Virus record (IMG/VR): IMGVR_UViG_3300007171_000004
Coordinates: 192,001-256,000 of that record
DNA: 64,000 nt
Strand: one strand, 5' to 3'
Origin: a virus
Lineage: Duplodnaviria > Caudoviricetes
Position numbers and translations under genes: made by a program
Notes under the pieces: model-generated
Seen by the model: only the letters and a program-made list of their open reading frames with translations
What the model was told of the DNA's origin: nothing
Database searches by the model: none
Shown here: positions 1 to 42,856 of the stretch, one piece after another
How positions within the stretch are numbered: position 1 is the first letter of the stretch
Layout: each line of letters begins with the position of its first letter

Positions 1-1407
1 TTCTCTTCTATTATCTTTTGATGCCCATACTAACATTCCATTACTATCAGAAGCAGTTGCAATGCCTCCTCCAATAGGTTCACCCATCATTACAGCAGGT
101 TCTAATATTCTTCCAACATTTCCAGCAGATGTATAGTTTAAATTAGCCATCTGTTGTGGTTGTTGAAGTTGAGGAGCTGCAGGTTGTCCTTGATTGATAG
201 GTCTTTGTTGTGCGGTTTGTCCAGTATCAACACCATCATCAATAATATCTTGCATTGTAGATTGTAAATCAGCCATAGACTTAGTGATTTTACCTACATG
301 TGCAAGATCGATGTTATCTTTCCTTGAGAACATATTCATCACAGCAACTTCCAAGAAATTCAGTGATAAATTAATCAAGTCTAAGATATTTAAGCCAGCT
401 CTTGGGTCGATTCCTAAAGCTTGCATGACAGCAGAAACAGTAGCATTTTGTCCTGCTCCTGGTTGTGCTAAGAGTTGTCCACCTACAAGAGTTCCAGCGC
501 TTTGTGCTAATCTGACTGCAGTATTAACAGTATGATTTGCTGTTTTAAGAGCTTGTTGATGTTCAGGAGATTCGTTTAAATGAAATGCTACTGCGATATT
601 TTTGTATAGTTCGTTAGCTTTCTTTTCTAATTGTCCAGCAGCTTGAAGAATTTCGTCTACATCGTAAATTTCTTCGATTTCACAGGATTCAAAAGCTCCA
701 TCGCCTACACAAGAGAGTTCAATAAATTTAACCCCATAGTTTTTTTCGTAGATGTGCTTTCCAGAATTAGGATGTTTCTTACCTTTCCACTTTTTAAGAC
801 AATCGCAGTAATCTTTTTCAGTGTAGGCTTTATTTGAACAATTAGAGCAGATACCGTATTCCACAGAAGCTCCCATAGAAACGTCATGGATTACTCCAGT
901 TCTAATATTTCTTGCAATATCTGGATAAGCTTCTTCATCTACGAAATAGGTACAGAAAACACAATTTTCTTTTTCGTCCCATTCTGCATATACAACCATA
1001 CCTTTAGCTTGTTCAATATCATCATTTTTATGGTTTGTATAGATTGGTACGCCTTCGAAAGTTTTATAAGAAGGGATTTTTTCGCCTTTAATTTCAACTT
1101 CTTTTAATAATTCTTCTTTACTAAAGTAATCGCCATTTGCATTTACTACATCTGCATCGATAGCTCTAGCACGAACCCAAAGAAGTTTTGCACCCTTTCT
1201 AGATTGCATTTCCTTAACGATATCGAAATCTTTATATTTTTTGAAAACATCATCAGGATTTGCATAGAGTGATTGAAGGCCAATTTTAGCAGCTTCTCTA
1301 AAATTTGTAGAAGCTGTTTTTAGAAGATGTTCTTTTACAAGTTCTCTATCATTAATATCTAGAAAACTCTCAATTGTAATTCTTCCACCTTTGGCAAACT
1401 TAAGCAT
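1..1407 (-). CDS. Prohead (capsid maturation) serine protease with C-terminal scaffold-like extension; runs off the left window edge (not in ORF track)
   Basis: Manual translation from ATG at 1407 stays open to base 1: MLKFAKGG...RAIDADVVNANGDYFSKEEL...YKTFEGVPIYTNHK...DVSMGASV...FIELSCVGDGAF. The NH, SMG and ELSxV motifs fit the HK97 gp4/assemblin-type protease. It lies directly downstream of the portal gene. Confidence 0.85.
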   Translation of the reverse strand, partial: MLKFAKGGRITIESFLDINDRELVKEHLLKTASTNFREAAKIGLQSLYANPDDVFKKYKDFDIVKEMQSRKGAKLLWVRARAIDADVVNANGDYFSKEELLKEVEIKGEKIPSYKTFEGVPIYTNHKNDDIEQAKGMVVYAEWDEKENCVFCTYFVDEEAYPDIARNIRTGVIHDVSMGASVEYGICSNCSNKAYTEKDYCDCLKKWKGKKHPNSGKHIYEKNYGVKFIELSCVGDGAFESCEIEEIYDVDEILQAAGQLEKKANELYKNIAVAFHLNESPEHQQALKTANHTVNTAVRLAQSAGTLVGGQLLAQPGAGQNATVSAVMQALGIDPRAGLNILDLINLSLNFLEVAVMNMFSRKDNIDLAHVGKITKSMADLQSTMQDIIDDGVDTGQTAQQRPINQGQPAAPQLQQPQQMANLNYTSAGNVGRILEPAVMMGEPIGGGIATASDSNGMLVWASKDNRRE

Positions 1408-18505: not shown

Positions 18506-19057
18506 TTATACTATTTCTTCTTCTAGTAATTTCTTAAGTGATTCTAATGCTCGTTCTAATCTTCTTGAAAACGATGCTTGGGTAATTTTCAATAATTCTG
18601 CAGCTTCTTCTTGAGTATATTCTTCAAAGAAATATAACTTAATTGCCTCTCTTTGTTTTTCTTTCAATTTAAGCAATGCATCTTTTATTACAATTTTATC
18701 CAATATTCTATTAAATGGATCACTGGCTTTTAGTTCTTGAATTTCTTGTTCATCAATTTCTTCAAGATGCGTGAATTTGCATTTGATGAGATTAACAATT
18801 GCTCTATCTATTCTTGTTGCTAAGTAATATGAAAAGAAAGATAATTCTGGATCATAAAGTTCTACAAGCTTCTTAAAGATAAAATAAGATTCTTGAATTA
18901 CATCCTCTACATATCTTATAGAATTATATTTAACTGTGCATCTTCTAATTGATGTTCTAATTAAGGGAGTATAGAATTCGTAAAGTTTATTTAAAGAATA
19001 TTGATCATTATTTTTAGCTTTTTCTACCAGCTTATTTATTTCTTCATAATTGTCCAT
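18506..19057 (-). CDS. Sigma-70 family RNA polymerase sigma factor (short, ECF-like)
   Basis: Region 2 EDVIQESYFIF...YDP...FSYY; region 4 LKEKQREAIKLYFFEEYTQEEAAELLKITQASFSRR. Confidence 0.9.
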   Translation of the reverse strand: MDNYEEINKLVEKAKNNDQYSLNKLYEFYTPLIRTSIRRCTVKYNSIRYVEDVIQESYFIFKKLVELYDPELSFFSYYLATRIDRAIVNLIKCKFTHLEEIDEQEIQELKASDPFNRILDKIVIKDALLKLKEKQREAIKLYFFEEYTQEEAAELLKITQASFSRRLERALESLKKLLEEEIV

Positions 19058-22260: not shown

Positions 22261-22992
22261 CTACTCGTTTTTCTTATCTTTACTTTGGATGTATTCTTCT
22301 ATTACTATGATTTCTTCTCTATATAATGAGCCTTCAAATTTGTGATTGGCATCTTTATAGACTGTGTATACATCTGTGGCTTTTTTTCTGATTCGAGTAA
22401 GAGCATTGTCTACACATTTTGCTGGAACATTTAGATTTTTTGAGATTTCTTTGTAAGTAGAATCGTATCCATATTCTTCAAAGATCTCAGTTTCTAATGG
22501 TGTAAGTTTTTTCTTTAAAATTTTTGATGCTTCTTCTAATTCTTCTTTAAGTAGAATGTCATCAATGATTTGAGTTTCTCTTGGTTCACCAAATGGATTA
22601 TCTCTATCTGGAATGAAATCTGCTAAAGTTTGTAAATTTCCATCATCTCCTAAAATAATTGGAGCATCTAATGAAATAGATTCGTTTAAAATTGTATTCT
22701 TCATTCGCTTTGCTGAAGAAATAGCTGTCGCAAGGTGTCTTTTACAAACTAAATTTACACAGAAATTTTTAAATGTTGTATCTTTAGTGCAGTCAAATGA
22801 ATTTATTGCTTTGAGAACTCCTAGTCTGAGTTCTTGTAAAACATCTTCTTTATCAGATCCCAATATAAAGAAGTGAAAAGTTAATTTCTTTAAATCTGGT
22901 TCAACCATTTTAAGAAGGGTGTCAAATGCTCTATTGTCACCCTTCTTAGCCTTTTCAACCAATCTTACTATTCTAACAGTTTCTGCTGCCAT
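22261..22992 (-). CDS. sigH: SigH-like RNA polymerase sigma factor
   Basis: DKEDVLQELRLGVLKAINSFD..K..TFKNF, SISLDAPI, LTPLE, YKEIS..L....KCVDNALTRIRKK. Likely start ATG 22992 with SD GGAGG. Confidence 0.9.
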   Translation of the reverse strand: MAAETVRIVRLVEKAKKGDNRAFDTLLKMVEPDLKKLTFHFFILGSDKEDVLQELRLGVLKAINSFDCTKDTTFKNFCVNLVCKRHLATAISSAKRMKNTILNESISLDAPIILGDDGNLQTLADFIPDRDNPFGEPRETQIIDDILLKEELEEASKILKKKLTPLETEIFEEYGYDSTYKEISKNLNVPAKCVDNALTRIRKKATDVYTVYKDANHKFEGSLYREEIIVIEEYIQSKDKKNE

Positions 22993-23023
22993 AATTTCCT
23001 CCACGGCAGCAATCAATTTTAAA

Positions 23024-24097
23024 TCATTTGTTACTTTGAGCAACAATCCCAATAGCTTTTAATACTGCTGTTTTAACAACAATATCTTCAGAAACGTTTT
23101 GCCGTATTTTTAATATTACATCCCAAAAATATTCATTTAGATTTAAAATTACATTTCCCTTTATCAATGCTCCTGAAAATTCATTAACATATTCATCAAC
23201 AAAATTATCATCTTTCAATAATTTAAATCGAAGAACATTCATCAAAATTTCTGACATATCTTGAAGAATTTGACCTAAATCTCTTCCCTCTAAATGGCAT
23301 GTTTCTACAATCCTAAATGATTTAGCTCTATCCATGTTTAGAATTGCATGAAGCAACTCTACTGATAGATGTTTTGGACTTTTGCCTAACAGTTCACGAA
23401 CATTATCATCTGTTGCGCCAATTGTAGAGACTTGTTCCAAAATAGCTAACGCAGTCCTTACACTTCCTTGTGATTCTTTGGCAATTAATTTTAAGCCTTC
23501 AGAATTTGAAGTTATTAATTCTTTTTTTACAATATTATCTAATATAGTTATAATATCTAACTCTGAAACCTTTTTAAGATGAAAATGTTGACATCTTGTT
23601 TTAATTGCTGGAAGAACTTTATTAGCATCTGTTGTGCAAAAAAAGAATTTTACATATGCTGGTGGTTCCTCTACAATCTTCAATAGTGAATTCTGTGCCT
23701 GAGGTGTTAGCATGTGACATTCATCAAAAATAAAGATCTTGTATTCTCCAATAGATGGCTGAATTCTAATCTTTTCGGCTACATTTTCACGAATATTGTC
23801 AATGCCATTATTAACAGCACAATTAATCTCAATCAAGTCTCGATGAGAGTCATTCATTATAAGTTTAGATGACTGAGAATTCAAATCAGGATTAGGGTCA
23901 TTTTCAGGACGATTTTCACAAAGCAAAGACATAGCAACAAGGCGAGCTAAAGTTGTCTTTCCAGTGCCAGGAGGACCAGAAAGGAGATACGCATGTGAAG
24001 TTTTATCGTGAACAATTTGTGCACTAAATATCTTAGTTGCAAAAGGTTGAATAACAGAATCAAAACTTACTGGTCTATATTTATTGTAAAGGCTCAT
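23024..24097 (-). CDS. dnaX: DNA polymerase III gamma/tau clamp-loader ATPase
   Basis: LYNKYRP..F, GPPGTGKTT, DLIEINCA, IFDECHML, LLKIVEEPP, IKTRCQ (SRC-like). Confidence 0.95.
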   Translation of the reverse strand: MSLYNKYRPVSFDSVIQPFATKIFSAQIVHDKTSHAYLLSGPPGTGKTTLARLVAMSLLCENRPENDPNPDLNSQSSKLIMNDSHRDLIEINCAVNNGIDNIRENVAEKIRIQPSIGEYKIFIFDECHMLTPQAQNSLLKIVEEPPAYVKFFFCTTDANKVLPAIKTRCQHFHLKKVSELDIITILDNIVKKELITSNSEGLKLIAKESQGSVRTALAILEQVSTIGATDDNVRELLGKSPKHLSVELLHAILNMDRAKSFRIVETCHLEGRDLGQILQDMSEILMNVLRFKLLKDDNFVDEYVNEFSGALIKGNVILNLNEYFWDVILKIRQNVSEDIVVKTAVLKAIGIVAQSNK

Positions 24098-30988: not shown

Positions 30989-31357
30989 TTACAGAGCTGC
31001 CTTGATGTCAATTGCAAAAATTCTTGTGCAAACACCCTTAGTTCGCTTGCCATTAATTTCAGCAAAGTATTCAGATTGTCTATTCACAAGAACAGATCCA
31101 TTAGTAAGAGATTCAACTTCTCTTGAGGCTAATCTAAATGCATTCATGGTTGCATTCAAGGCTGTTGGGCCTACAGAAAGAATTTTAACGTAATCATGTT
31201 CCTTTAAAACATGCAGAATACTCCTTGATAGGCCTACTGGATCTGTAGGCCTTCTGCTACCATCGGGGTCATTAGGATCTCCACCACGTACTCTTAAAAT
31301 TCTAGGATCCTTTTGATTCTTAATCTTATCATTATCTACATCATAAATATCGTTCAT
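30989..31357 (-). CDS. spoVS: SpoVS-like (Alba-fold) protein
   Basis: ILRVRG...TDPVGLSRSILHVLKEHDYVKILSVGPTALNATMNAFRLASREV...EINGKRTK aligns by eye with SpoVS (VLKVS..S.P..VAGAL...EIQAIGAGALNQAVKA.AIARG.V...IDGEERT). Confidence 0.7.
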   Translation of the reverse strand: MNDIYDVDNDKIKNQKDPRILRVRGGDPNDPDGSRRPTDPVGLSRSILHVLKEHDYVKILSVGPTALNATMNAFRLASREVESLTNGSVLVNRQSEYFAEINGKRTKGVCTRIFAIDIKAAL

Positions 31358-31360
31358 TTT

Positions 31361-32329
31361 TTAAACTTCCAACCCTAAAAGGGACATTTTATTTTTAAGA
31401 GAATTTAAAGCAGTATTAAATTCATCGATCGTACATCTATATACACTAGCATTAAACACAATTTTCTTTTTGCCAGAAAGTGCATTGCTAATAATCTTTT
31501 CTTCTAACAAACTAAGATTCATATTAACTAAGTCATTGATTTTATTTGAGTCCTCAATTCGATCATACGTACAATTTTCATCTCCCTCATTGTCATCTTG
31601 GTTATAAACACTCATTAATCTAGGGGATACTGTTTGATATCCTGGATACATTTCGTTGAATTTTTGAAATAATAGAGTTGAATGCTTTGATAATAAGTGC
31701 TTTTTAATTGCTTCTTTAAGTGCATTCTTTTTGCAAATTTCACAATCTTCATTGACTGTTTCACAAGTGCATTCGATAGTACGTGGAGTTTTAAAGCTTT
31801 TACAAAATGGACAGTGTGCCAAAGTTTCTAAATCAAATCCAGAATTATTCATATGATCCCACAAGATATCACTGTGACATTTTCTCAAGTGAGTAGAAAG
31901 AGGAGAAACAAATTTATCACAAATTGGACATTTACATGATGGATTTCTTTTAGCTGCATTATCTGCTTTTACCAAATTGATATAGTTATGATGTAAAGCT
32001 CCAATAAAATAATTCTTAAATTCTCCACTTCCACCGTATCTGGACACTTTTCTTAGATTTCTTGGCTGCCAATTAGAAAGTACATTACAAAAAATCTTCA
32101 TATATTCAATCGAAAAATCATCATAAGAGTCATATAGATAATAATATTGATTGTACCATTCTTGAATATGTAAATTTGGTGGATAAATAGCACAAATCTT
32201 ATTATAATACAAATCAATTGCTCTTTGATTATTTGTTTCAAGGGCTTTTTGATATCTTATAATTGCATCTTCTAACTGTGTCTGATATTCTTTAGACTTC
32301 TTATCAACTTTGGGTGTTACTACTGACAT
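31361..32329 (-). CDS. Sigma-factor-like protein with inserted Zn-finger domains
   Basis: Region-2-like YDDFSIEYMKIF...EFKNYFIGALHHNYINLVK...KRNP, then CPIC...HLRKCH and CPFC...C...C...HLLSKH, then LSLLEEKII. Confidence 0.5.
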   Translation of the reverse strand: MSVVTPKVDKKSKEYQTQLEDAIIRYQKALETNNQRAIDLYYNKICAIYPPNLHIQEWYNQYYYLYDSYDDFSIEYMKIFCNVLSNWQPRNLRKVSRYGGSGEFKNYFIGALHHNYINLVKADNAAKRNPSCKCPICDKFVSPLSTHLRKCHSDILWDHMNNSGFDLETLAHCPFCKSFKTPRTIECTCETVNEDCEICKKNALKEAIKKHLLSKHSTLLFQKFNEMYPGYQTVSPRLMSVYNQDDNEGDENCTYDRIEDSNKINDLVNMNLSLLEEKIISNALSGKKKIVFNASVYRCTIDEFNTALNSLKNKMSLLGLEV

Positions 32330-32387: not shown

Positions 32388-34181
32388 TCAAGCTGTTTTA
32401 GATGGTTTGATGTCTTCTATGATAAGAGATATGTTTTTCCTACCATAAAATGAATCTTCAGACAATGTAAAAGCGACATCATAGAAATTTCCCTCAATAA
32501 ATGTATCAAATAAATATCCTTTGCGCCACCCATTTGCATCAATAGTATTAGTTGATGATTTACTTGAGAATTTTAATTTAAGATGTTTATCATTTGACAT
32601 AGTGCTTTTCTTGACTAACTTAAGATTAGAAATTGAAAATACAGGATTTAAGTTCATGGAGCCAAATGGAGAAAGTTTTGTTAATTCTTCATAAGTAAAA
32701 CTAGAAACATCACTGAAACTCATTTTAGAATCAATCAAAATCACTTTATCTTCAAAAGAAACTCCAGGTTGATTTTTAGCATACTCATCTAAAGCTTTTT
32801 GAAGTGGCTTTAAATTATCTTTATGTAACTCAAATCCTGCAGCAAAAGCATGACCTCCGCAAACAGTAGAACCATCAGCACGTTTCTTAAATAACGCCCA
32901 AGCCTTTTCAGATTTTAGAGCATCAAGAATATTAAAATCCCTTACTGAACGACAAGAACCTTTTGCATATCCATCATCTTTTATCGTGCAGCATAAAGTT
33001 GGCTTGTTAAATTTTTCAGCAATCTTTCCAGCAATCAACCCAATTAAACCAGCATGCCAAGATTTAGACCAAACAACAAGAATATTCGTATTATCTAAAT
33101 CGTAATTATTCAATACAAAATTAATAGCATCTTCTGTAGCTTTTTCCTGATCAGTTTGTCGTTTCTTATTAGCATGGTCAAGTTGAGTAGCCAAGAAATT
33201 TGCTCTAACTTCATTCTTTTCCAATAATAAATCTAAAGCTGTTCCAGAATCCGCAAGTCTTCCTATAGCATTAATTCTTGGACCAATTTGAAAGCCAATA
33301 GTAGTTGTATTTACTTCTTTAGCACCAGCAACTTTTAATAAGGCTTTAACACCGGGCTTATTAGAATTTGAAAGTTTATCGCAGCCTAGATGAACTAAGA
33401 TTCTATTCTCGTCAATCATAGGAGCAACATCAGCAACAGTACCTAGAGCAACATATTCAATATTCTCCTCTACCATAGTTTTGATTGAAAATTTCCTAGA
33501 ATGCGCAAGGGCTAACATTACCTTAAAAGCAATGCCAACACCAGCTAAAGCATCAAAAGGATATCGCTTAAAGTCTTTGTTAGATTCATTAGAAAAAATA
33601 TGCCCAGGATAATGTGGATCATCTCTATTTGGATTAATGACAGCCAAACTACAAGGCAAGCTTCCATCTTCCGAGGGGTGGTGGTGATCTGTGATAATCA
33701 AATCTAGACCCTTTTGTTTCGCATATTCAGCAGTTTCAAAAGCAACAATCCCACAGTCAACAGATAGCATTAGGGTAGCATTACGTTTTATTGCTTCATC
33801 TACAGAATGCATTTTAATATCGTAACCATCTTCCATTCTGTGTGGAACTTTGTATTCGATGTTAGCACCAAGAAGATTTAGAGATGTGACAATAACAGCA
33901 GTCGCAGTAACGCCATCAACATCATAATCACCCCAGACAAAAATCTTTTCATTATTATCAATTGCTCTATTTAATCTATCAACTGCAATTCTGATGTCAG
34001 GCAAAAGAAAAGGATTGTGCATTTTTTTAATATTGACATCGAAATATTCATGAGCATCTTCTGGAGTATGAATATTTCTAGATGCCATGATGTTAGCTAC
34101 AGGCAAAGGAATCTCAAGTTCATCAGCCAAATTTGAGGCTATTTCTTTATCAAAATCAATATATTTCCAAACAGTATTCAT
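32388..34181 (-). CDS. recJ: ssDNA 5'-3' exonuclease RecJ
   Basis: GDYDVDG, SVDCG, ITDHH, ALGTVADV, GPRINAIGRL, GSCRS and GGHAFAAG motifs. Confidence 0.96.
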   Translation of the reverse strand: MNTVWKYIDFDKEIASNLADELEIPLPVANIMASRNIHTPEDAHEYFDVNIKKMHNPFLLPDIRIAVDRLNRAIDNNEKIFVWGDYDVDGVTATAVIVTSLNLLGANIEYKVPHRMEDGYDIKMHSVDEAIKRNATLMLSVDCGIVAFETAEYAKQKGLDLIITDHHHPSEDGSLPCSLAVINPNRDDPHYPGHIFSNESNKDFKRYPFDALAGVGIAFKVMLALAHSRKFSIKTMVEENIEYVALGTVADVAPMIDENRILVHLGCDKLSNSNKPGVKALLKVAGAKEVNTTTIGFQIGPRINAIGRLADSGTALDLLLEKNEVRANFLATQLDHANKKRQTDQEKATEDAINFVLNNYDLDNTNILVVWSKSWHAGLIGLIAGKIAEKFNKPTLCCTIKDDGYAKGSCRSVRDFNILDALKSEKAWALFKKRADGSTVCGGHAFAAGFELHKDNLKPLQKALDEYAKNQPGVSFEDKVILIDSKMSFSDVSSFTYEELTKLSPFGSMNLNPVFSISNLKLVKKSTMSNDKHLKLKFSSKSSTNTIDANGWRKGYLFDTFIEGNFYDVAFTLSEDSFYGRKNISLIIEDIKPSKTA

Positions 34182-34202: not shown

Positions 34203-34952
34203 CTATGTAATTTTAACCTTTTTGTGGCCTTTTTCTAAACTATCAATTATCAAATTTTCAAGAAAGTCGCACCCATATTCAAGAGCAAATTCATCTGGAT
34301 CAAGATTCTCTGGTAGCAGTATATTGCAGTAATTCATTTTATGCTCTTCAATTTTCTTGATTTGTTTTTCAGAAGACATTATTCCAGCTTGATCAGAATC
34401 TAGCATTAATACTATATTTCTTGTGTAACGATAAATAAGAGCTAAATGAACTTCTGATAAATTTGTTCCACAGACAGCAACTACATTGTCAATACCTAAA
34501 GATGAAAGAATAATAGCGTCAAAATATCCTTCGACAACTACAACGTAATTTTTATTCTTTATTGAAGTTTTAGCATTATTAAGATTATATAGATGGTTTG
34601 ATTTAGAATAAGACTCATTTATCCATTTGCCTTTAAGCCATTTATTAACTCTATCTTCTTTCTTTTTTGGAGATAAATAAGGATCATTCCAAATTTCAGA
34701 AATCATGGCTTCTTTAAGTGGGTCAAAATGTCTTCCAGCAAAAGCTACATGTCTGTTGTGACAATCTTTGATAGATAAAACAATTCGACCCTTAATAAGA
34801 GGAAACCAGTGTTCATCCTGAGGATTGCATACACCAAGGTTAAACTTATGGAATAATTCTTTTTTTATTCCCCTAGATATTAAGTATTCAATAGCTTCTT
34901 TATTCATATCAAGATTGCTAGCAAATAGTTTATATTTATCTAAAATTTCCAT
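34203..34952 (-). CDS. dnaG: DnaG-type primase catalytic core plus TOPRIM (no zinc-binding domain)
   Basis: EYLISRGI, RIVLSI...FAGR, KWINESYSKS..LYN, VVEGYFD, MLDSDQAG, DPDE; 249 aa with no CHC2 finger. Confidence 0.88.
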   Translation of the reverse strand: MEILDKYKLFASNLDMNKEAIEYLISRGIKKELFHKFNLGVCNPQDEHWFPLIKGRIVLSIKDCHNRHVAFAGRHFDPLKEAMISEIWNDPYLSPKKKEDRVNKWLKGKWINESYSKSNHLYNLNNAKTSIKNKNYVVVVEGYFDAIILSSLGIDNVVAVCGTNLSEVHLALIYRYTRNIVLMLDSDQAGIMSSEKQIKKIEEHKMNYCNILLPENLDPDEFALEYGCDFLENLIIDSLEKGHKKVKIT

Positions 34953-36196: not shown

Positions 36197-37147
36197 TTAA
36201 TCCCACTCCATCCCTTCGTCAGAAATAGAATCAGTTTCCTCAACAGGTTGAGGCTTAGGCTTTGCCACTGGTTTCTCAACAACAACTTCTTCGACAACCT
36301 TAGTTGGCTTAGATGCTTCTGAGTTATAAGGCTCACGAACTGGAGCAGGTTCAGTCATGACAGGTGTAAACTTAAACATCTTGTCAAGTTGATATCCCCA
36401 TGCGAAATGCTCTTGCCACTCAGGAAGATAGGTGTTATGAGCACGATACTTATTGTACTCTGAACGGCGTTGAGCAACATCATCATCTGAAAGATTTGAA
36501 GCAGCCATCTTAAGTTCAGCCAGCATTTCCTGAGTAAGAGTCAAGTCCTTAGAATCAGCACTAACACTATATTCAATAGATTTTGGTCCAGTAAGACCTG
36601 TCTTACGAGCAGTGATGCGGAAGCATGGAGCACTATGACCACCTGCAAGGGTAGAAAAGTCTTCACGCTCATCCTCATCAAGTTCCATAGATTCATCATA
36701 ACGATTTACTTCCCACTCTGCAATTGGGCGAAAAACGCTCTTACCCTTAGTAAGGATTGCAAGTTCCCAAGTGCCATCTTCATTTCGGACGAAGCAGTTT
36801 TGTGCATACTTTTGAACGCCAACATATCCAAGCTTCTTCCATGGACACTGATTTGGGTCAGCGTGACCAATGCGAGTGATGCGATTGTTGAATTCAGCAT
36901 CTGGAAATGGAGCTAGAACAGTCTTGCCCTTCTCGGAGCCATCATACTTATATGAACCGTACTCTACGAAAGAATATGGAAGGCCTACGAGGCGAACCTT
37001 ATGAGTAATCTTAGACTCAGAGGTCTTTGAAAGTGAGAAGTTTACGAACGTGGCCTTCTTGTAAGTACCACCATTTGACGAGTTGTTGTACGTTTGTTGA
37101 GTGCGCTCTCCGATGATGTCTCGGGCAGAGCTGAAAGTATACGACAT
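36197..37147 (-). CDS. Phage single-stranded DNA-binding protein (gp32-like layout)
   Basis: Aromatic-rich OB-like core (VRLVG, KGKSVF, FRITARKTG..IEYSV) with an acidic C-terminal tail (DSISDEGMEWD); directly upstream of recA. Confidence 0.7.
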   Translation of the reverse strand: MSYTFSSARDIIGERTQQTYNNSSNGGTYKKATFVNFSLSKTSESKITHKVRLVGLPYSFVEYGSYKYDGSEKGKTVLAPFPDAEFNNRITRIGHADPNQCPWKKLGYVGVQKYAQNCFVRNEDGTWELAILTKGKSVFRPIAEWEVNRYDESMELDEDEREDFSTLAGGHSAPCFRITARKTGLTGPKSIEYSVSADSKDLTLTQEMLAELKMAASNLSDDDVAQRRSEYNKYRAHNTYLPEWQEHFAWGYQLDKMFKFTPVMTEPAPVREPYNSEASKPTKVVEEVVVEKPVAKPKPQPVEETDSISDEGMEWD

Positions 37148-42250: not shown

Positions 42251-42856
42251 TTATCCCATATGTCTTTTTGCATGTTCTTTAACTTTATCTCCAATTTTAT
42301 TCCATATCAAATTAAGTTTATTTGTGTCATTAATATTATATGCATCATCTACATCTAAATATACCCTTTCAAAAAAATCATCTAAAAAGGGATATTTGCT
42401 TTGATATTTATGAATTCTATCAGTTATAGCAAAAAGATATGTATTTTTATTTAAACCACCAATTAATCCACTAGTAAAGCTTCTATTCAAATAATCGTTG
42501 ATAGTACTTTTAATTTTATTTACTGTCAATGACATCTCATATTCTTCAGCTTGTGCAGAAACGCCAGCACAAATTGAAAGCTTTTGTATTGCAGCTGGAA
42601 AAGAGATAGATTCAATCTTTTGAACTAAATTAATTAAATTTCCAGTCTCACCACATCCAAAACAATTAAAATAATCAGATTCAAGATTATAACCAAAAGA
42701 TGGAGACCTGTCGTTATGATCTGGAAAAGGGCATGAACAATTAAGCCAGTTATTTCCAGACTCAACAAATTCTAAATCGTATTCATTTTCTAAAAAAGCC
42801 CTAGAGTCTAGAGCTTTTAGTATTTCTTTAATGTATTCTTGAGAGTATTGAATCAT
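42251..42856 (-). CDS. Stand-alone primase CHC2 zinc-binding domain with helical C-terminal extension
   Basis: CPFPDHNDRSPSF...FNCFGCGETGNLINLVQKIESISFPAAIQKL; directly downstream of dnaB. Confidence 0.88.
   Translation of the reverse strand: MIQYSQEYIKEILKALDSRAFLENEYDLEFVESGNNWLNCSCPFPDHNDRSPSFGYNLESDYFNCFGCGETGNLINLVQKIESISFPAAIQKLSICAGVSAQAEEYEMSLTVNKIKSTINDYLNRSFTSGLIGGLNKNTYLFAITDRIHKYQSKYPFLDDFFERVYLDVDDAYNINDTNKLNLIWNKIGDKVKEHAKRHMG

What the first reader, a model, noticed from the sequence alone, without database searches (positions are those of the whole stretch)
31361..32329. Candidate sigma factor with zinc fingers inserted between regions 2 and 4
Seen: the N-terminal ~135 aa parallels sigma region 2 of the window's own SigH (DDFSIEY...F...EFKNYF...NYINLVKADNAAKRNP versus EDVLQEL...SFD...TFKNFC...HLATAISSAKRMKN). 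About 120 aa of Cys/His fingers follow, then SVYNQDD...TYDRIED (cf. SLDAP...TLADFI) and a short LSLLEEKII region-4-like helix with no clear HTH. Inference: a sigma or sigma mimic whose -35 recognition is replaced or aided by Zn fingers; I do not know this architecture from characterised sigmas.
Basis: inference. Interest (0 to 1): 0.62.

Follow-up and report, generated by a model that had tools for sequence, protein, structure and literature searches.

The report
Zinc-finger sigma-like factor of huge phages
An uncultured 300-kb phage and its relatives encode a protein built like a bacterial sigma factor (the subunit that tells RNA polymerase where to start), but two zinc fingers of the type common in animals and plants sit where the usual middle domain would be; I found this layout in no paper, solved structure or named family, and its function is untested.

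Summary
It has over 100 metagenomic homologues, all unnamed. The predicted structure has three parts:
- a sigma domain 2-like N-terminus (residues ~10-127);
- a ~105-residue zinc module (128-236), followed by a uniformly acidic linker (237-260);
- a four-helix sigma domain 4-like C-terminus (261-322).

In a structure search the 27 best solved chains were all sigma factors (SigB Z 8.5, SigH Z 7.7), each spanning both end domains. Sequence evidence is weaker. The window protein hits no sigma profile. Two relatives at about 25% identity hit Pfam Sigma70_r2 just under threshold (23.9 and 20.6 bits, cut-off 24).

The eight zinc ligands (two C-x2-C...H-x4-H sets, Di19-like) are the best conserved positions in the family. 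The gene always ends the SSB-RecA-primase-exonuclease operon. These phages carry one to four canonical sigma region 2 matches each, and I detected no RNA polymerase genes in them.

Best reading (about 0.58): a sigma70-derived factor for host RNA polymerase with C2H2 fingers in place of sigma domain 3. RNAP binding and DNA reading are untested. Earlier agents of this scan reached the same reading on other genomes.

The parts
31361..32329 (-). Whole ORF, 322 aa plus stop: zinc-finger sigma-like factor
   Evidence: ORF list. 116 homologues at 40-98% identity. 52 representatives with E up to 0.001 in an exhaustive HMMER search. AlphaFold2 mean pLDDT 83.
31949..32302 (-). Sigma domain 2-like helical domain (residues ~10-127; regions 1.2-2.4)
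   Evidence: pLDDT 88-96. VIA-align: nearly every hit covering 80 or more residues of this domain is a sigma domain 2, e.g. pro-sigmaK Z 7.7, SigI6 7.6, SigW 7.4, sigma32 7.0, T4 gp55 complex chain 7d7d_F 6.4. hhalign to the window's SigH-like family P 0.016. Relatives P0149 and the L083 ORF hit Sigma70_r2 over the equivalent residues.
32030..32071 (-). Extended conserved loop between the helix 2.2 and helix 2.3 equivalents (residues 87-100; invariant W87, P89, R93, G100; G102 just beyond)
   Evidence: Invariant columns. About 9 residues longer than in the SigH-like sigma (gap in the alignment). Conserved basic and aromatic columns R90, R93, R97, Y98. A role as a base-binding loop, as in ECF sigmas, is inference.
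31622..31948 (-). Zinc module in the place of sigma domain 3 (residues 128-236)
   Evidence: Alignments A1, A2, A4. 12 of 28 family members hit Pfam zf-Di19. Folded alone: pLDDT 77. No solved structure resembles the module as a whole: best Z 3.3; Foldseek E > 8.
31874..31930 (-). Finger 1: C134-x2-C137-x9-H147-x4-H152
   Evidence: C134, C137, H147 invariant and H152 kept in at least 90% of A2. Predicted hairpin followed by a helix.
31682..31813 (-). Finger 2: C173-x2-C176 ... H211-x4-H216, with a variable insert between knuckle and helix
   Evidence: C176 invariant; C173, H211, H216 kept in at least 90%. The insert is absent or short in distant relatives, which gives classical C2H2 spacing.
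31733..31774 (-). Clade-specific extra Cys cluster (C186, C188, C196, C199) inside finger 2: possible third metal site
   Evidence: Present in the nearer loci and absent in L075-L081. pLDDT 56-63. Metal binding is inferred only.
31550..31621 (-). Acidic, poorly ordered linker (residues 237-260), region 3.2-like
   Evidence: pLDDT 43-57. Net charge -6.4 +/- 1.0 in all 58 homologues. S240 in at least 90% and Y255 invariant. The analogy to sigma region 3.2 or the ECF linker is inference.
31364..31549 (-). Sigma domain 4-like four-helix HTH domain (residues 261-322)
   Evidence: pLDDT 77-93. SigF domain 4 8jzt_A Z 5.8, rmsd 2.3 A, 56 residues. All 27 top full-length sigma alignments extend to residues 319-322. 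Sequence level not significant: hhalign E 0.21-0.32, only the L-S/T-x-x-E-x-x-I helix.
30989..31357 (-). SpoVS-like ORF (122 aa), starting 3 nt after the target's stop; conserved partner gene in the nearer clade
   Evidence: Pfam SpoVS E 0.0084, below cut-off. Adjacent to the target in all 35 viral loci at 43-92% identity. Not found next to the distant homologue in L083.
32388..34181 (-). RecJ-like exonuclease, upstream neighbour in the same operon
   Evidence: Pfam DHH, DHHA1, RecJ_OB. PHROG RecJ-like 2.8e-99. Conserved upstream in the viral loci that reach that far.
22261..23052 (-). Canonical SigH-like sigma factor of the same phage (comparator)
   Evidence: Pfam Sigma70_r2 and r4_2. NCBIfam SigH models E 1e-30 to 1e-33.
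18506..19057 (-). Second canonical, ECF-type sigma factor of the same phage
   Evidence: PF04542 match at 27.4 bits. TIGR02937 at 84.5 bits.

Best explanation
The gene encodes a very diverged member of the sigma-70 lineage.

Anatomy:
- An N-terminal sigma domain 2, the part that in known sigmas docks on the beta-prime clamp helices and opens the -10 element.
- A C-terminal sigma domain 4-like helix-turn-helix domain, the part that in known sigmas holds the beta flap tip.
- An acidic region 3.2-like linker in front of domain 4.
- Two conserved C2H2 zinc fingers (plus a third, clade-specific cysteine cluster) where group 1-3 sigmas carry domain 3.

Proposed mechanism:
- The phage and its complete relatives show no detectable RNA polymerase of their own but carry ordinary sigma factors. 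The protein therefore most likely binds the host core enzyme as an extra, phage-specific promoter-specificity subunit.
- It is made from the replication/recombination operon. It would then direct a later class of phage genes, much as T4 makes its late sigma among replication genes.
- The zinc module would contact spacer or upstream promoter DNA, or a partner protein, in place of domain 3. This partly compensates for a domain 4 that has few conserved basic residues.

Shown here: the gene, its conservation, the domain layout, the fold resemblance, the near-threshold profile hits and the conserved gene order.
Inferred: RNA polymerase binding, promoter recognition, timing, zinc binding and the role of the fingers.
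For: - Fold. AlphaFold2 model pLDDT 83. In a search of 48,161 representative chains, nearly every hit that covers the N-terminal domain is a sigma domain 2 (Z 5.9-7.7, 83-101 residues, rmsd 2.4-4.2 A). The best hit overall is S. aureus SigB (Z 8.5, 150 residues over model 16..320). In the second look, ranks 1-27 are all sigma factors, including B. subtilis SigB and SigH models and SigA of five genera. They align 146-165 residues across both end domains (one chain covers domain 2 only), and the best non-sigma chain has Z 5.2 over 42 residues. Foldseek's top three PDB hits are also sigmas (E 0.02-0.95).
- Sequence. The window protein matches P0149 by phmmer at E 8e-16 over residues 39-253. P0149 hits Pfam Sigma70_r2 at E 3.7e-5, 23.9 bits against a cut-off of 24, residues 65-111 on profile positions 22-68. 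A second member of that clade scores 20.6 bits at the same place. Both have TIGR02937 sigma70-ECF as their only NCBIfam hit (E 0.004-0.005). hhalign of the family against the phage's SigH-like family gives P 0.016 in the expected register. The family motif D-F-x-Q-[DE]-Y lines up with the region 2.2 hallmark D-L-x-Q-E.
- Language-model look-alikes include seven viral Sigma70_r2 clusters (score 0.94).
- Context. Two canonical sigmas lie in the same window. No beta or beta-prime Pfam match in the 300-kb record. No beta-prime match in five relatives 89-100% complete, each of which has 1-4 ORFs matching PF04542.
- The linker is uniformly acidic, as in sigma region 3.2.
- Gene order SSB-RecA-primase-exonuclease-target is kept in all viral loci long enough to show it and in a distant clade.
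Against: - The window protein itself hits no sigma model in Pfam, PHROGs or NCBIfam.
- Family profiles do not retrieve sigma chains from PDB sequences at significant E; SigB appears only at E 1.6.
- All Z-scores are 8.5 or lower. The tool warns that for helical domains such values can reflect a common arrangement.
- hhalign probabilities are low (2.9% or less). The P-value of 0.016 is for one chosen comparison.
- The domain 4 resemblance rests on a predicted structure only (E 0.21-0.32 by profile). That domain is net acidic on average, with one conserved basic column, which is unlike a -35-reading domain.
- The conserved position inside a replication/recombination operon would also suit a replication protein.
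- No promoter motif could be tied to the factor.
- No experiment exists. Multimer co-folding with RNA polymerase was not available.
Confidence: 0.58

Rival explanations
1. The protein descends from a sigma factor but no longer initiates transcription. It would bind host core RNA polymerase through its domain 2 and 4 surfaces. There it would act as a decoy or shut-off factor that displaces host sigmas, or as an adaptor tethering the polymerase to another phage protein or to DNA through the zinc fingers.
For: It rests on the same fold and profile evidence as the main explanation. The domain 4-like part is net acidic with one conserved basic column. The region 2.3 equivalent (F104, Y107, F108) lacks the tryptophan pair that housekeeping sigmas carry there (my knowledge of sigma-70), although the phage's own SigH-like sigma lacks it too. 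The phage already has two ordinary sigmas for its own promoters.
Against: The loop and helix that in sigmas touch the -10 strand are the most conserved non-ligand part, with invariant basic and aromatic residues (W87, R90, R93, R97, Y98, F104, K105, Y107, F108). A pure decoy would not need this. The acidic linker is also kept, and in sigmas it functions inside the active-site channel.
Confidence: 0.2
2. It is a replication or recombination accessory protein, such as an origin-binding or loader protein. It would use zinc fingers and a helix-turn-helix domain to bind DNA, and its likeness to sigma domain 2 would be a coincidence of helical packing.
For: It is always the last gene of the SSB-RecA-primase-exonuclease operon, even in a distant clade where the exonuclease is of another family. 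Z-scores are in the range the tool calls uncertain for helical domains. The window protein has no direct sigma profile hit.
Against: No replication protein appears among the structural matches. Two independent HMM libraries pick a sigma-70 model as the only or best hit for distant members, in the right register. The order domain 2, acidic linker, domain 4 matches sigma factors end to end. From my own knowledge, T4 also places its late sigma gene 55 between recombination-nuclease and nucleotide-reductase genes, so the position does not argue against a sigma.
Confidence: 0.14
3. The N-terminal domain is a bromodomain-like or other unrelated helical module, and the protein is a zinc-finger regulator unconnected with RNA polymerase.
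For: The family profile hits the TRIM24 bromodomain sequence (helices B-C) at E 5.5e-4, 22.6 bits, over profile positions 48-125.
Against: Only TRIM24 and its paralogue TRIM33 (E 0.23) are hit, out of the many bromodomains in the PDB. No bromodomain is among the top 50 structural matches. The aligned stretch is a helix-loop-helix with a similar amphipathic pattern, and the bromodomain's acetyl-lysine-binding Asn position (my knowledge of the fold) falls on non-conserved family columns.
Confidence: 0.03

Closest known systems
Group 3 sigma-70-family factors (SigB, SigH, SigF type), including the phage's own SigH-like sigma at 22261..23052
   Same: Same order of parts: region 1.2-2.4 domain, acidic 3.2-like linker, four-helix domain 4. 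These are the best structural matches (SigB Z 8.5, SigH Z 7.7). The register of the 2.2 and 2.3 motifs is shared.
   Different: No three-helix domain 3: a ~105-residue module with two C2H2 zinc fingers sits in its place. A loop about 9 residues longer lies between helices 2.2 and 2.3. Domain 4 has few conserved basic residues. The window protein scores below every curated sigma model.
ECF (group 4) sigma factors, TIGR02937 / Pfam Sigma70_r2 + r4_2
   Same: A two-domain logic (domain 2, linker, domain 4) without domain 3. TIGR02937 is the only NCBIfam hit of distant family members. SigW, SigK, SigC and sigmaE domain 2 structures match at Z 5.9-7.4.
   Different: From my own knowledge, ECF sigmas join the two domains by a short linker. 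Here a folded zinc module of about 105 residues is interposed. The protein is about 130 residues longer than typical ECF sigmas.
Phage T4 late transcription factors gp55 (sigma domain 2 only) and gp33 (flap-binding co-activator)
   Same: A phage-made, highly diverged sigma that standard sequence models miss. The chain 7d7d_F of the T4 gp45-dependent activation complex matches at Z 6.4 over 94 residues, with the highest identity (14%) among the domain 2 hits. The gene sits among replication, recombination and nucleotide genes (position in T4 is from my own knowledge).
   Different: Here one polypeptide carries both a domain 2 and a domain 4-like part, plus zinc fingers. No clamp-binding tail was identified. 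Dependence on the sliding clamp is unknown.
Di19 / KCMF1-type paired C2H2 zinc fingers (Pfam PF05605)
   Same: Two C-x2-C...H-x4-H fingers in tandem. 12 of 28 family members hit PF05605, one just over the cut-off (27.6 against 27.5 bits). KCMF1 appears weakly in the PDB sequence search (E 1.7).
   Different: The window protein itself has no PF05605 hit. Finger 2 carries a long insert with four extra cysteines. From my own knowledge, Di19 and KCMF1 are eukaryotic, and bacterial C2H2-like fingers of the Ros/MucR type are single domains, not parts of a sigma.
Sigma factors with cysteine-rich appendages (e.g. the Burkholderia ECF sigma OrbS, PMC9023288)
   Same: A sigma-70-family factor carrying an additional cysteine-containing element. 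The paper was found; only its title and abstract were read.
   Different: The OrbS abstract describes an on-board iron sensor of an iron-starvation sigma. From my own knowledge, such cysteine-rich elements are terminal extensions that regulate activity. They are not a folded C2H2 pair standing in for domain 3.

Membership tests
Sigma-70 family (Pfam Sigma70_r2/r4, NCBIfam TIGR02937) | Domain 2 fold (helices of regions 1.2-2.4) | tested here: met
   This rests on a predicted structure. Nearly every structural hit covering 80 or more residues of residues 11-143 is a sigma domain 2 (Z 5.9-7.7). Ranks 1-27 of the second look are all sigmas.
Sigma-70 family (Pfam Sigma70_r2/r4, NCBIfam TIGR02937) | Profile-level sequence match to region 2 | tested here: inconclusive
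   Window protein: no hit. Relatives: P0149 at 23.9 bits and the L083 ORF at 20.6 bits, against a cut-off of 24. TIGR02937 at 16.6-16.7 bits against 42.9. hhalign P 0.016.
Sigma-70 family (Pfam Sigma70_r2/r4, NCBIfam TIGR02937) | Domain 4 helix-turn-helix | tested here: inconclusive
   The predicted four-helix domain matches SigF domain 4 (Z 5.8, rmsd 2.3 A, 56 residues). By profile the match is not significant (E 0.21-0.32). Only one basic column is conserved.
Sigma-70 family (Pfam Sigma70_r2/r4, NCBIfam TIGR02937) | Binding to core RNA polymerase (beta-prime clamp helices, beta flap) | not testable with these tools
   Only single-chain prediction was available. The host polymerase is unknown.
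Sigma-70 family (Pfam Sigma70_r2/r4, NCBIfam TIGR02937) | Promoter-specific initiation | not testable with these tools
   Motif searches in the phage's intergenic DNA found candidate words, but none could be linked to this factor.
Group 3 sigma factors specifically | Three-helix domain 3 between domains 2 and 4 | tested here: not met
   Residues 128-236 are a zinc module. Sigma alignments cover only about 150-165 residues, roughly the size of the two end domains together. The module folded alone matches no solved fold (best Z 3.3).
C2H2 zinc fingers, Di19 type (PF05605) | Two conserved C-x2-C ... H-x(3-5)-H ligand sets | tested here: met
   C134/C137/H147/H152 and C173/C176/H211/H216 are invariant or kept in at least 90% across relatives at 16-42% identity.
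C2H2 zinc fingers, Di19 type (PF05605) | Score above the curated Pfam cut-off | tested here: inconclusive
   The window protein shows only zf-C2H2_4 at E 0.93. 12 of 28 relatives hit PF05605 at E up to 1. One is over the cut-off (P0158, 27.6 against 27.5 bits).
C2H2 zinc fingers, Di19 type (PF05605) | Zinc binding and beta-beta-alpha fold | not testable with these tools
   Finger 1 is predicted as a hairpin plus helix. Metal content needs an experiment.
T4 gp55-type late sigma | Minimal domain 2-only architecture working with a separate flap-binding co-activator and the sliding clamp | tested here: not met
   The protein has its own domain 4-like C-terminus. Clamp dependence was not testable.
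Zinc-binding anti-sigma (ZAS) domains | H-x3-C-x2-C motif | tested here: not met
   The translation contains H147-x3-C151, but no cysteine follows at the x2 position. The conserved ligands follow the C-x2-C...H-x4-H pattern.

The most novel reading that the evidence does not exclude
A clade of huge phages has built a new class of sigma factor in which eukaryote-style C2H2 zinc fingers replace domain 3 and read promoter DNA between or upstream of the -10 and -35 positions. The acidic domain 4 would serve mainly as a flap anchor. Made from the replisome operon, the factor would couple a late gene class to replication. This would be the first sigma whose promoter specificity comes partly from zinc fingers.
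Probability: 0.3. Interest if true: 0.82.

Novelty: new variant of a known kind. Interest (0 to 1): 0.6.

Why it matters
Sigma factors are among the best studied transcription proteins. As far as I know, their promoter-reading parts are all helical domains (2, 3 and 4).

A natural sigma in which a pair of C2H2 zinc fingers stands in for domain 3 would add a new way of building promoter specificity onto bacterial RNA polymerase. It would also give a rare case of classical zinc fingers working in a bacterial virus. C2H2 fingers are modular and reprogrammable, so the design would interest people who engineer orthogonal transcription.

For phage biology, it would mark a third, hidden transcription factor in a widespread clade of 260-480-kb uncultured phages that apparently rely on the host polymerase. 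Current annotation pipelines leave the gene as 'hypothetical protein' in every one of over 100 records.

Tried and rejected
- Direct family scans of the window protein gave nothing useful (Pfam, PHROGs, NCBIfam).
- tblastn against 50,697 phage records found no match at E up to 1e-3, so no cultured phage there shows a detectable homologue.
- Family profiles against PDB sequences gave no significant sigma hit (A1, A5, A6). A2 gave TRIM24 bromodomain at E 5.5e-4. I judge this a chance helix-loop-helix match, since only TRIM24 and TRIM33 were hit and no bromodomain appeared in the fold search.
- A second word-indexed homologue search, with the diverse alignment, returned the same set and reached no named sigma.
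- The search with the SigH-like sigma returned only close relatives (at least 66% identity), so the comparator profile is shallow.
- The zinc module folded alone matched no solved fold (best Z 3.3; Foldseek E > 8). This does not show a new fold, because single fingers are too small to score.
- BFVD viral structures gave only weak hits (E at least 0.12), several of them named phage sigma factors.
- Promoter discovery in the 300-kb genome used k-mer enrichment and an EM motif finder. They converged on a nine-copy hairpin cassette outside the window and on a modestly enriched TTGTACAA word. Neither can be tied to this factor.
- The consensus promoter/terminator scan around the gene was at background level.
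Alignment-based locus searches failed for lack of a conserved stretch. A scan of viral contigs with P0149 found nothing. One metagenome locus (L083) was obtained instead.
- A ZAS anti-sigma reading was rejected because the motif is absent.
- A spurious-ORF reading was rejected because of the conservation.
Full report
**The gene and its genome**

The window is bases 192001-256000 of a 300,536-bp IMG/VR virus record that CheckV rates 84% complete. The ORF named in the finding runs from 32329 down to 31361 on the minus strand and encodes 322 residues.

It lies in a long minus-strand operon. In transcription order the operon holds:
- a large DNA polymerase gene;
- a 246-aa ORF of unknown function;
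- a gp32-like SSB (36197-37147);
- a RecA/UvsX recombinase;
- a primase Toprim part;
- a RecJ-like exonuclease;
- the target;
- a SpoVS-like ORF that starts 3 nt after the target's stop;
- a 154-aa ORF of unknown function;
- the two ribonucleotide reductase subunits.

Two ordinary sigma factors lie further along the same strand. One is SigH-like (22261-23052). The other is ECF-type (18506-19057).

**Is it a real, conserved protein?**

Yes. The 90%-clustered protein collection holds 116 homologues at 40-98% identity, all unnamed or called 'hypothetical protein'. An exhaustive HMMER pass over 1.84 billion representatives finds 52 clusters with E up to 0.001, down to about 16-30% identity to the window protein.

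IMG/VR holds 35 loci with the gene, on contigs of up to 478,840 bp. No record in a collection of 50,697 phage genomes has a detectable homologue. The polymerase of this phage is under 36% identical to anything there. This is therefore an uncultured clade of huge phages.

**Anatomy**

An AlphaFold2 model built on 58 homologues has mean pLDDT 83. It shows four parts:
- a five-helix N-terminal domain (residues 10-127, pLDDT mostly 88-96);
- a zinc module (128-236);
- a poorly ordered stretch (237-260);
- a four-helix C-terminal domain (261-322).

Among 28 relatives at 16-42% identity to the window protein, only five columns are invariant: the start Met, C134, C137, H147 and C176. H152, C173, H211 and H216 are kept in at least 90%. 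These eight residues make two C-x2-C...H-x4-H sets.

Finger 1 has near-classical C2H2 spacing and is predicted as a hairpin plus helix. Finger 2 has a variable insert between knuckle and helix. In this phage and its nearer relatives the insert carries four more cysteines. In distant relatives it is short or absent.

Twelve of the 28 relatives hit Pfam zf-Di19, a paired C2H2 domain, and one exceeds the curated cut-off. Folded alone (pLDDT 77), the module resembles no solved structure as a whole (best Z 3.3).

The following linker is acidic in every homologue (net -6.4 +/- 1.0 over 24 residues).

**Is the N-terminus a sigma domain 2?**

Three lines of evidence agree, none of them strong alone.

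1. Structure.
   - Against 48,161 representative PDB chains, nearly every match covering 80 or more residues of the domain is a sigma domain 2. Examples are pro-sigmaK, SigI6, SigW, sigma32, SigA, ShbA, SigK, RpoS, SigC and sigmaE, plus a chain of the T4 gp45-dependent activation complex (7d7d_F) and one of the AR9 polymerase holoenzyme (Z 5.9-7.7).
   - The other rows are mostly ~45-residue matches to the first helical hairpin.
   - The top hit is full-length S. aureus SigB (Z 8.5, 150 residues).
   - In a second look at Foldseek's candidates, ranks 1-27 are all sigma factors. They align 146-165 residues from model residue ~14 to ~322 (one chain covers domain 2 only). The best non-sigma chain reaches Z 5.2 over 42 residues.
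2. Profiles.
   - The window protein matches P0149 at E 8e-16 across the domain.
   - P0149 hits Pfam Sigma70_r2 at E 3.7e-5, 0.1 bit under the gathering score, in the register expected.
   - A 62%-identical relative of P0149 on a metagenome contig hits the same positions at 20.6 bits.
   - In NCBIfam, the only hit of both proteins is the sigma70-ECF superfamily model.
3. Profile-profile alignment. The family consensus D-F-x-Q-[DE]-Y lines up with the D-L-x-Q-E signature of region 2.2.

A protein-language-model search also places seven viral Sigma70_r2 clusters among the nearest neighbours.

Against this:
- The window protein itself hits no sigma model.
- PDB sequence searches with family profiles give no significant sigma hit.
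- The Z-scores are in a range the tool flags as uncertain for helical domains.

**Is the C-terminus a sigma domain 4?**

Structurally it looks so. SigF domain 4 superposes at Z 5.8, rmsd 2.3 A, over 56 of 57 residues. All full-length sigma alignments run to the end of the model.

By sequence, only the first helix (L-S-x-x-E-x-x-I against L-T-P-L-E-x-E-I) aligns, and not significantly.

The domain is net acidic on average and has a single conserved basic column, K312. It may therefore hold the beta flap rather than read a -35 element. That is inference.

In one distant sub-clade this domain has gained four conserved cysteines of its own.

**Context that bears on function**

Neither the 300-kb record nor five relatives that are 89-100% complete (347-479 kb) show a beta-prime match. 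The own record was also checked for beta, with no match. Each relative has one to four ORFs matching Sigma70_r2.

The clade therefore apparently uses the host polymerase and re-programmes it with sigma factors. That gives a sigma-like protein an obvious client. A published survey of jumbo phages describes the same strategy for its group 2. [quoted passage not shown] The order SSB-RecA-primase-exonuclease-target is kept in every viral locus long enough to show it. It is also kept in the distant locus L083, where the exonuclease is a PD-(D/E)XK enzyme instead of RecJ.

The SpoVS-like neighbour is kept in all 35 viral loci and is often more conserved than the target. It is absent beside the L083 homologue.

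**Most likely mechanism**

I read the protein as a sigma-70-derived specificity factor for host core polymerase. Each step below is inference from the roles these parts have in known sigmas:
- Domain 2 docks on the clamp helices.
- The unusually long, invariant basic and aromatic loop (residues 87-100, with G102 just beyond) and the following helix handle the -10 region.
- The acidic linker takes the path of region 3.2.
- The C-terminal domain holds the flap.
- The zinc fingers occupy the place from which domain 3 normally touches the extended -10 and spacer. They could read DNA there or bind a partner such as the SpoVS-like protein.

Expression from the replication operon suggests that the factor switches on a later gene class.

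Rivals are set out in the report's sections, with the evidence for and against each:
- a sigma-derived decoy or adaptor;
- a replication accessory protein;
- an unrelated helical module.

**Comparison with what is known, and novelty**

The protein works like, and probably descends from, group 3/4 sigma factors. It fails the curated sequence thresholds and lacks domain 3, so I do not file it as an ordinary member.

I found no paper describing a sigma with internal C2H2 fingers in five full-text searches, and no Pfam, PHROG or NCBIfam family for it.

Earlier agents of this scan reached the same reading for homologues in other genomes (e1-5337355, e1-5811637). Those are unchecked AI notes, not independent evidence, but they mean the scan has seen this family before.

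I rate it a new variant of a known kind, with interest 0.6. The architecture would surprise specialists and is directly testable, but every functional step is still inferred.

Noticed in passing
window 30989-31357 (-): SpoVS-like 122-aa ORF (Pfam SpoVS E 0.0084, below cut-off) starts 3 nt after the target's stop. It is kept next to the target in all 35 viral loci at 43-92% identity, often better conserved than the target. It is absent beside the distant homologue in L083. It may be a partner protein.
   Followed up: partly
own genome G000:C1 282424-290502 (outside the window): Nine copies of a ~100-nt intergenic cassette centred on the perfect hairpin GGGGGGTTAACCCCCC. It has ATTATTT/AAATAAT arms and a TTGACA-like hexamer, and lies between short, mostly minus-strand genes. 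It looks like a repeated terminator/promoter unit of an early region.
   Followed up: partly
own genome, e.g. G000:C1 28283, 185519 and 193478 (the last is window 1478): The palindromic word TTGTACAA, and CTTGTA[AC]AA, occur about 6-7 times more often than expected in intergenic DNA (6 found against 0.8-0.9 expected). They often lie in gaps between divergent genes. This is a candidate phage promoter or operator word, not linked to any factor.
   Followed up: partly
window 36197-37147 (-): A 316-aa ORF with no Pfam or PHROG hit is probably the phage's gp32-like single-strand DNA-binding protein. It matches the syntenic L083 ORF at BLASTP 2e-11, and that ORF has a weak Pfam gp32 match.
   Followed up: partly
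L083:9651-16930 (metagenome contig Ga0315284_10004128): Beside the distant homologue lie PrkA, DUF444 and SpoVR-like genes. The PrkA and SpoVR genes are each interrupted by an intein with a LAGLIDADG endonuclease.
   Followed up: no
L084 and L085 (JALRHN010000152.1, JALRHN010000253.1): Two short, low-coverage contigs binned into a 'Candidatus Kapaibacterium' MAG carry copies of the gene, one 100% identical and one 59% identical. They are probably phage fragments in the bin. At most this is a weak host hint.
   Followed up: no
alignment A5 (P0137, P0141, P0143, P0147, P0149, P0155-P0157): A distant sub-clade of the family has four invariant cysteines (P0149 numbering C262, C285, C288, C297) inside the sigma4-like domain. 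This suggests an additional zinc site there.
   Followed up: no
window 34203-34952 (-) and 42251-42856 (-): The primase appears split into two separate genes about 7 kb apart. One carries the Toprim/catalytic part and the other the CHC2 zinc-ribbon part.
   Followed up: no
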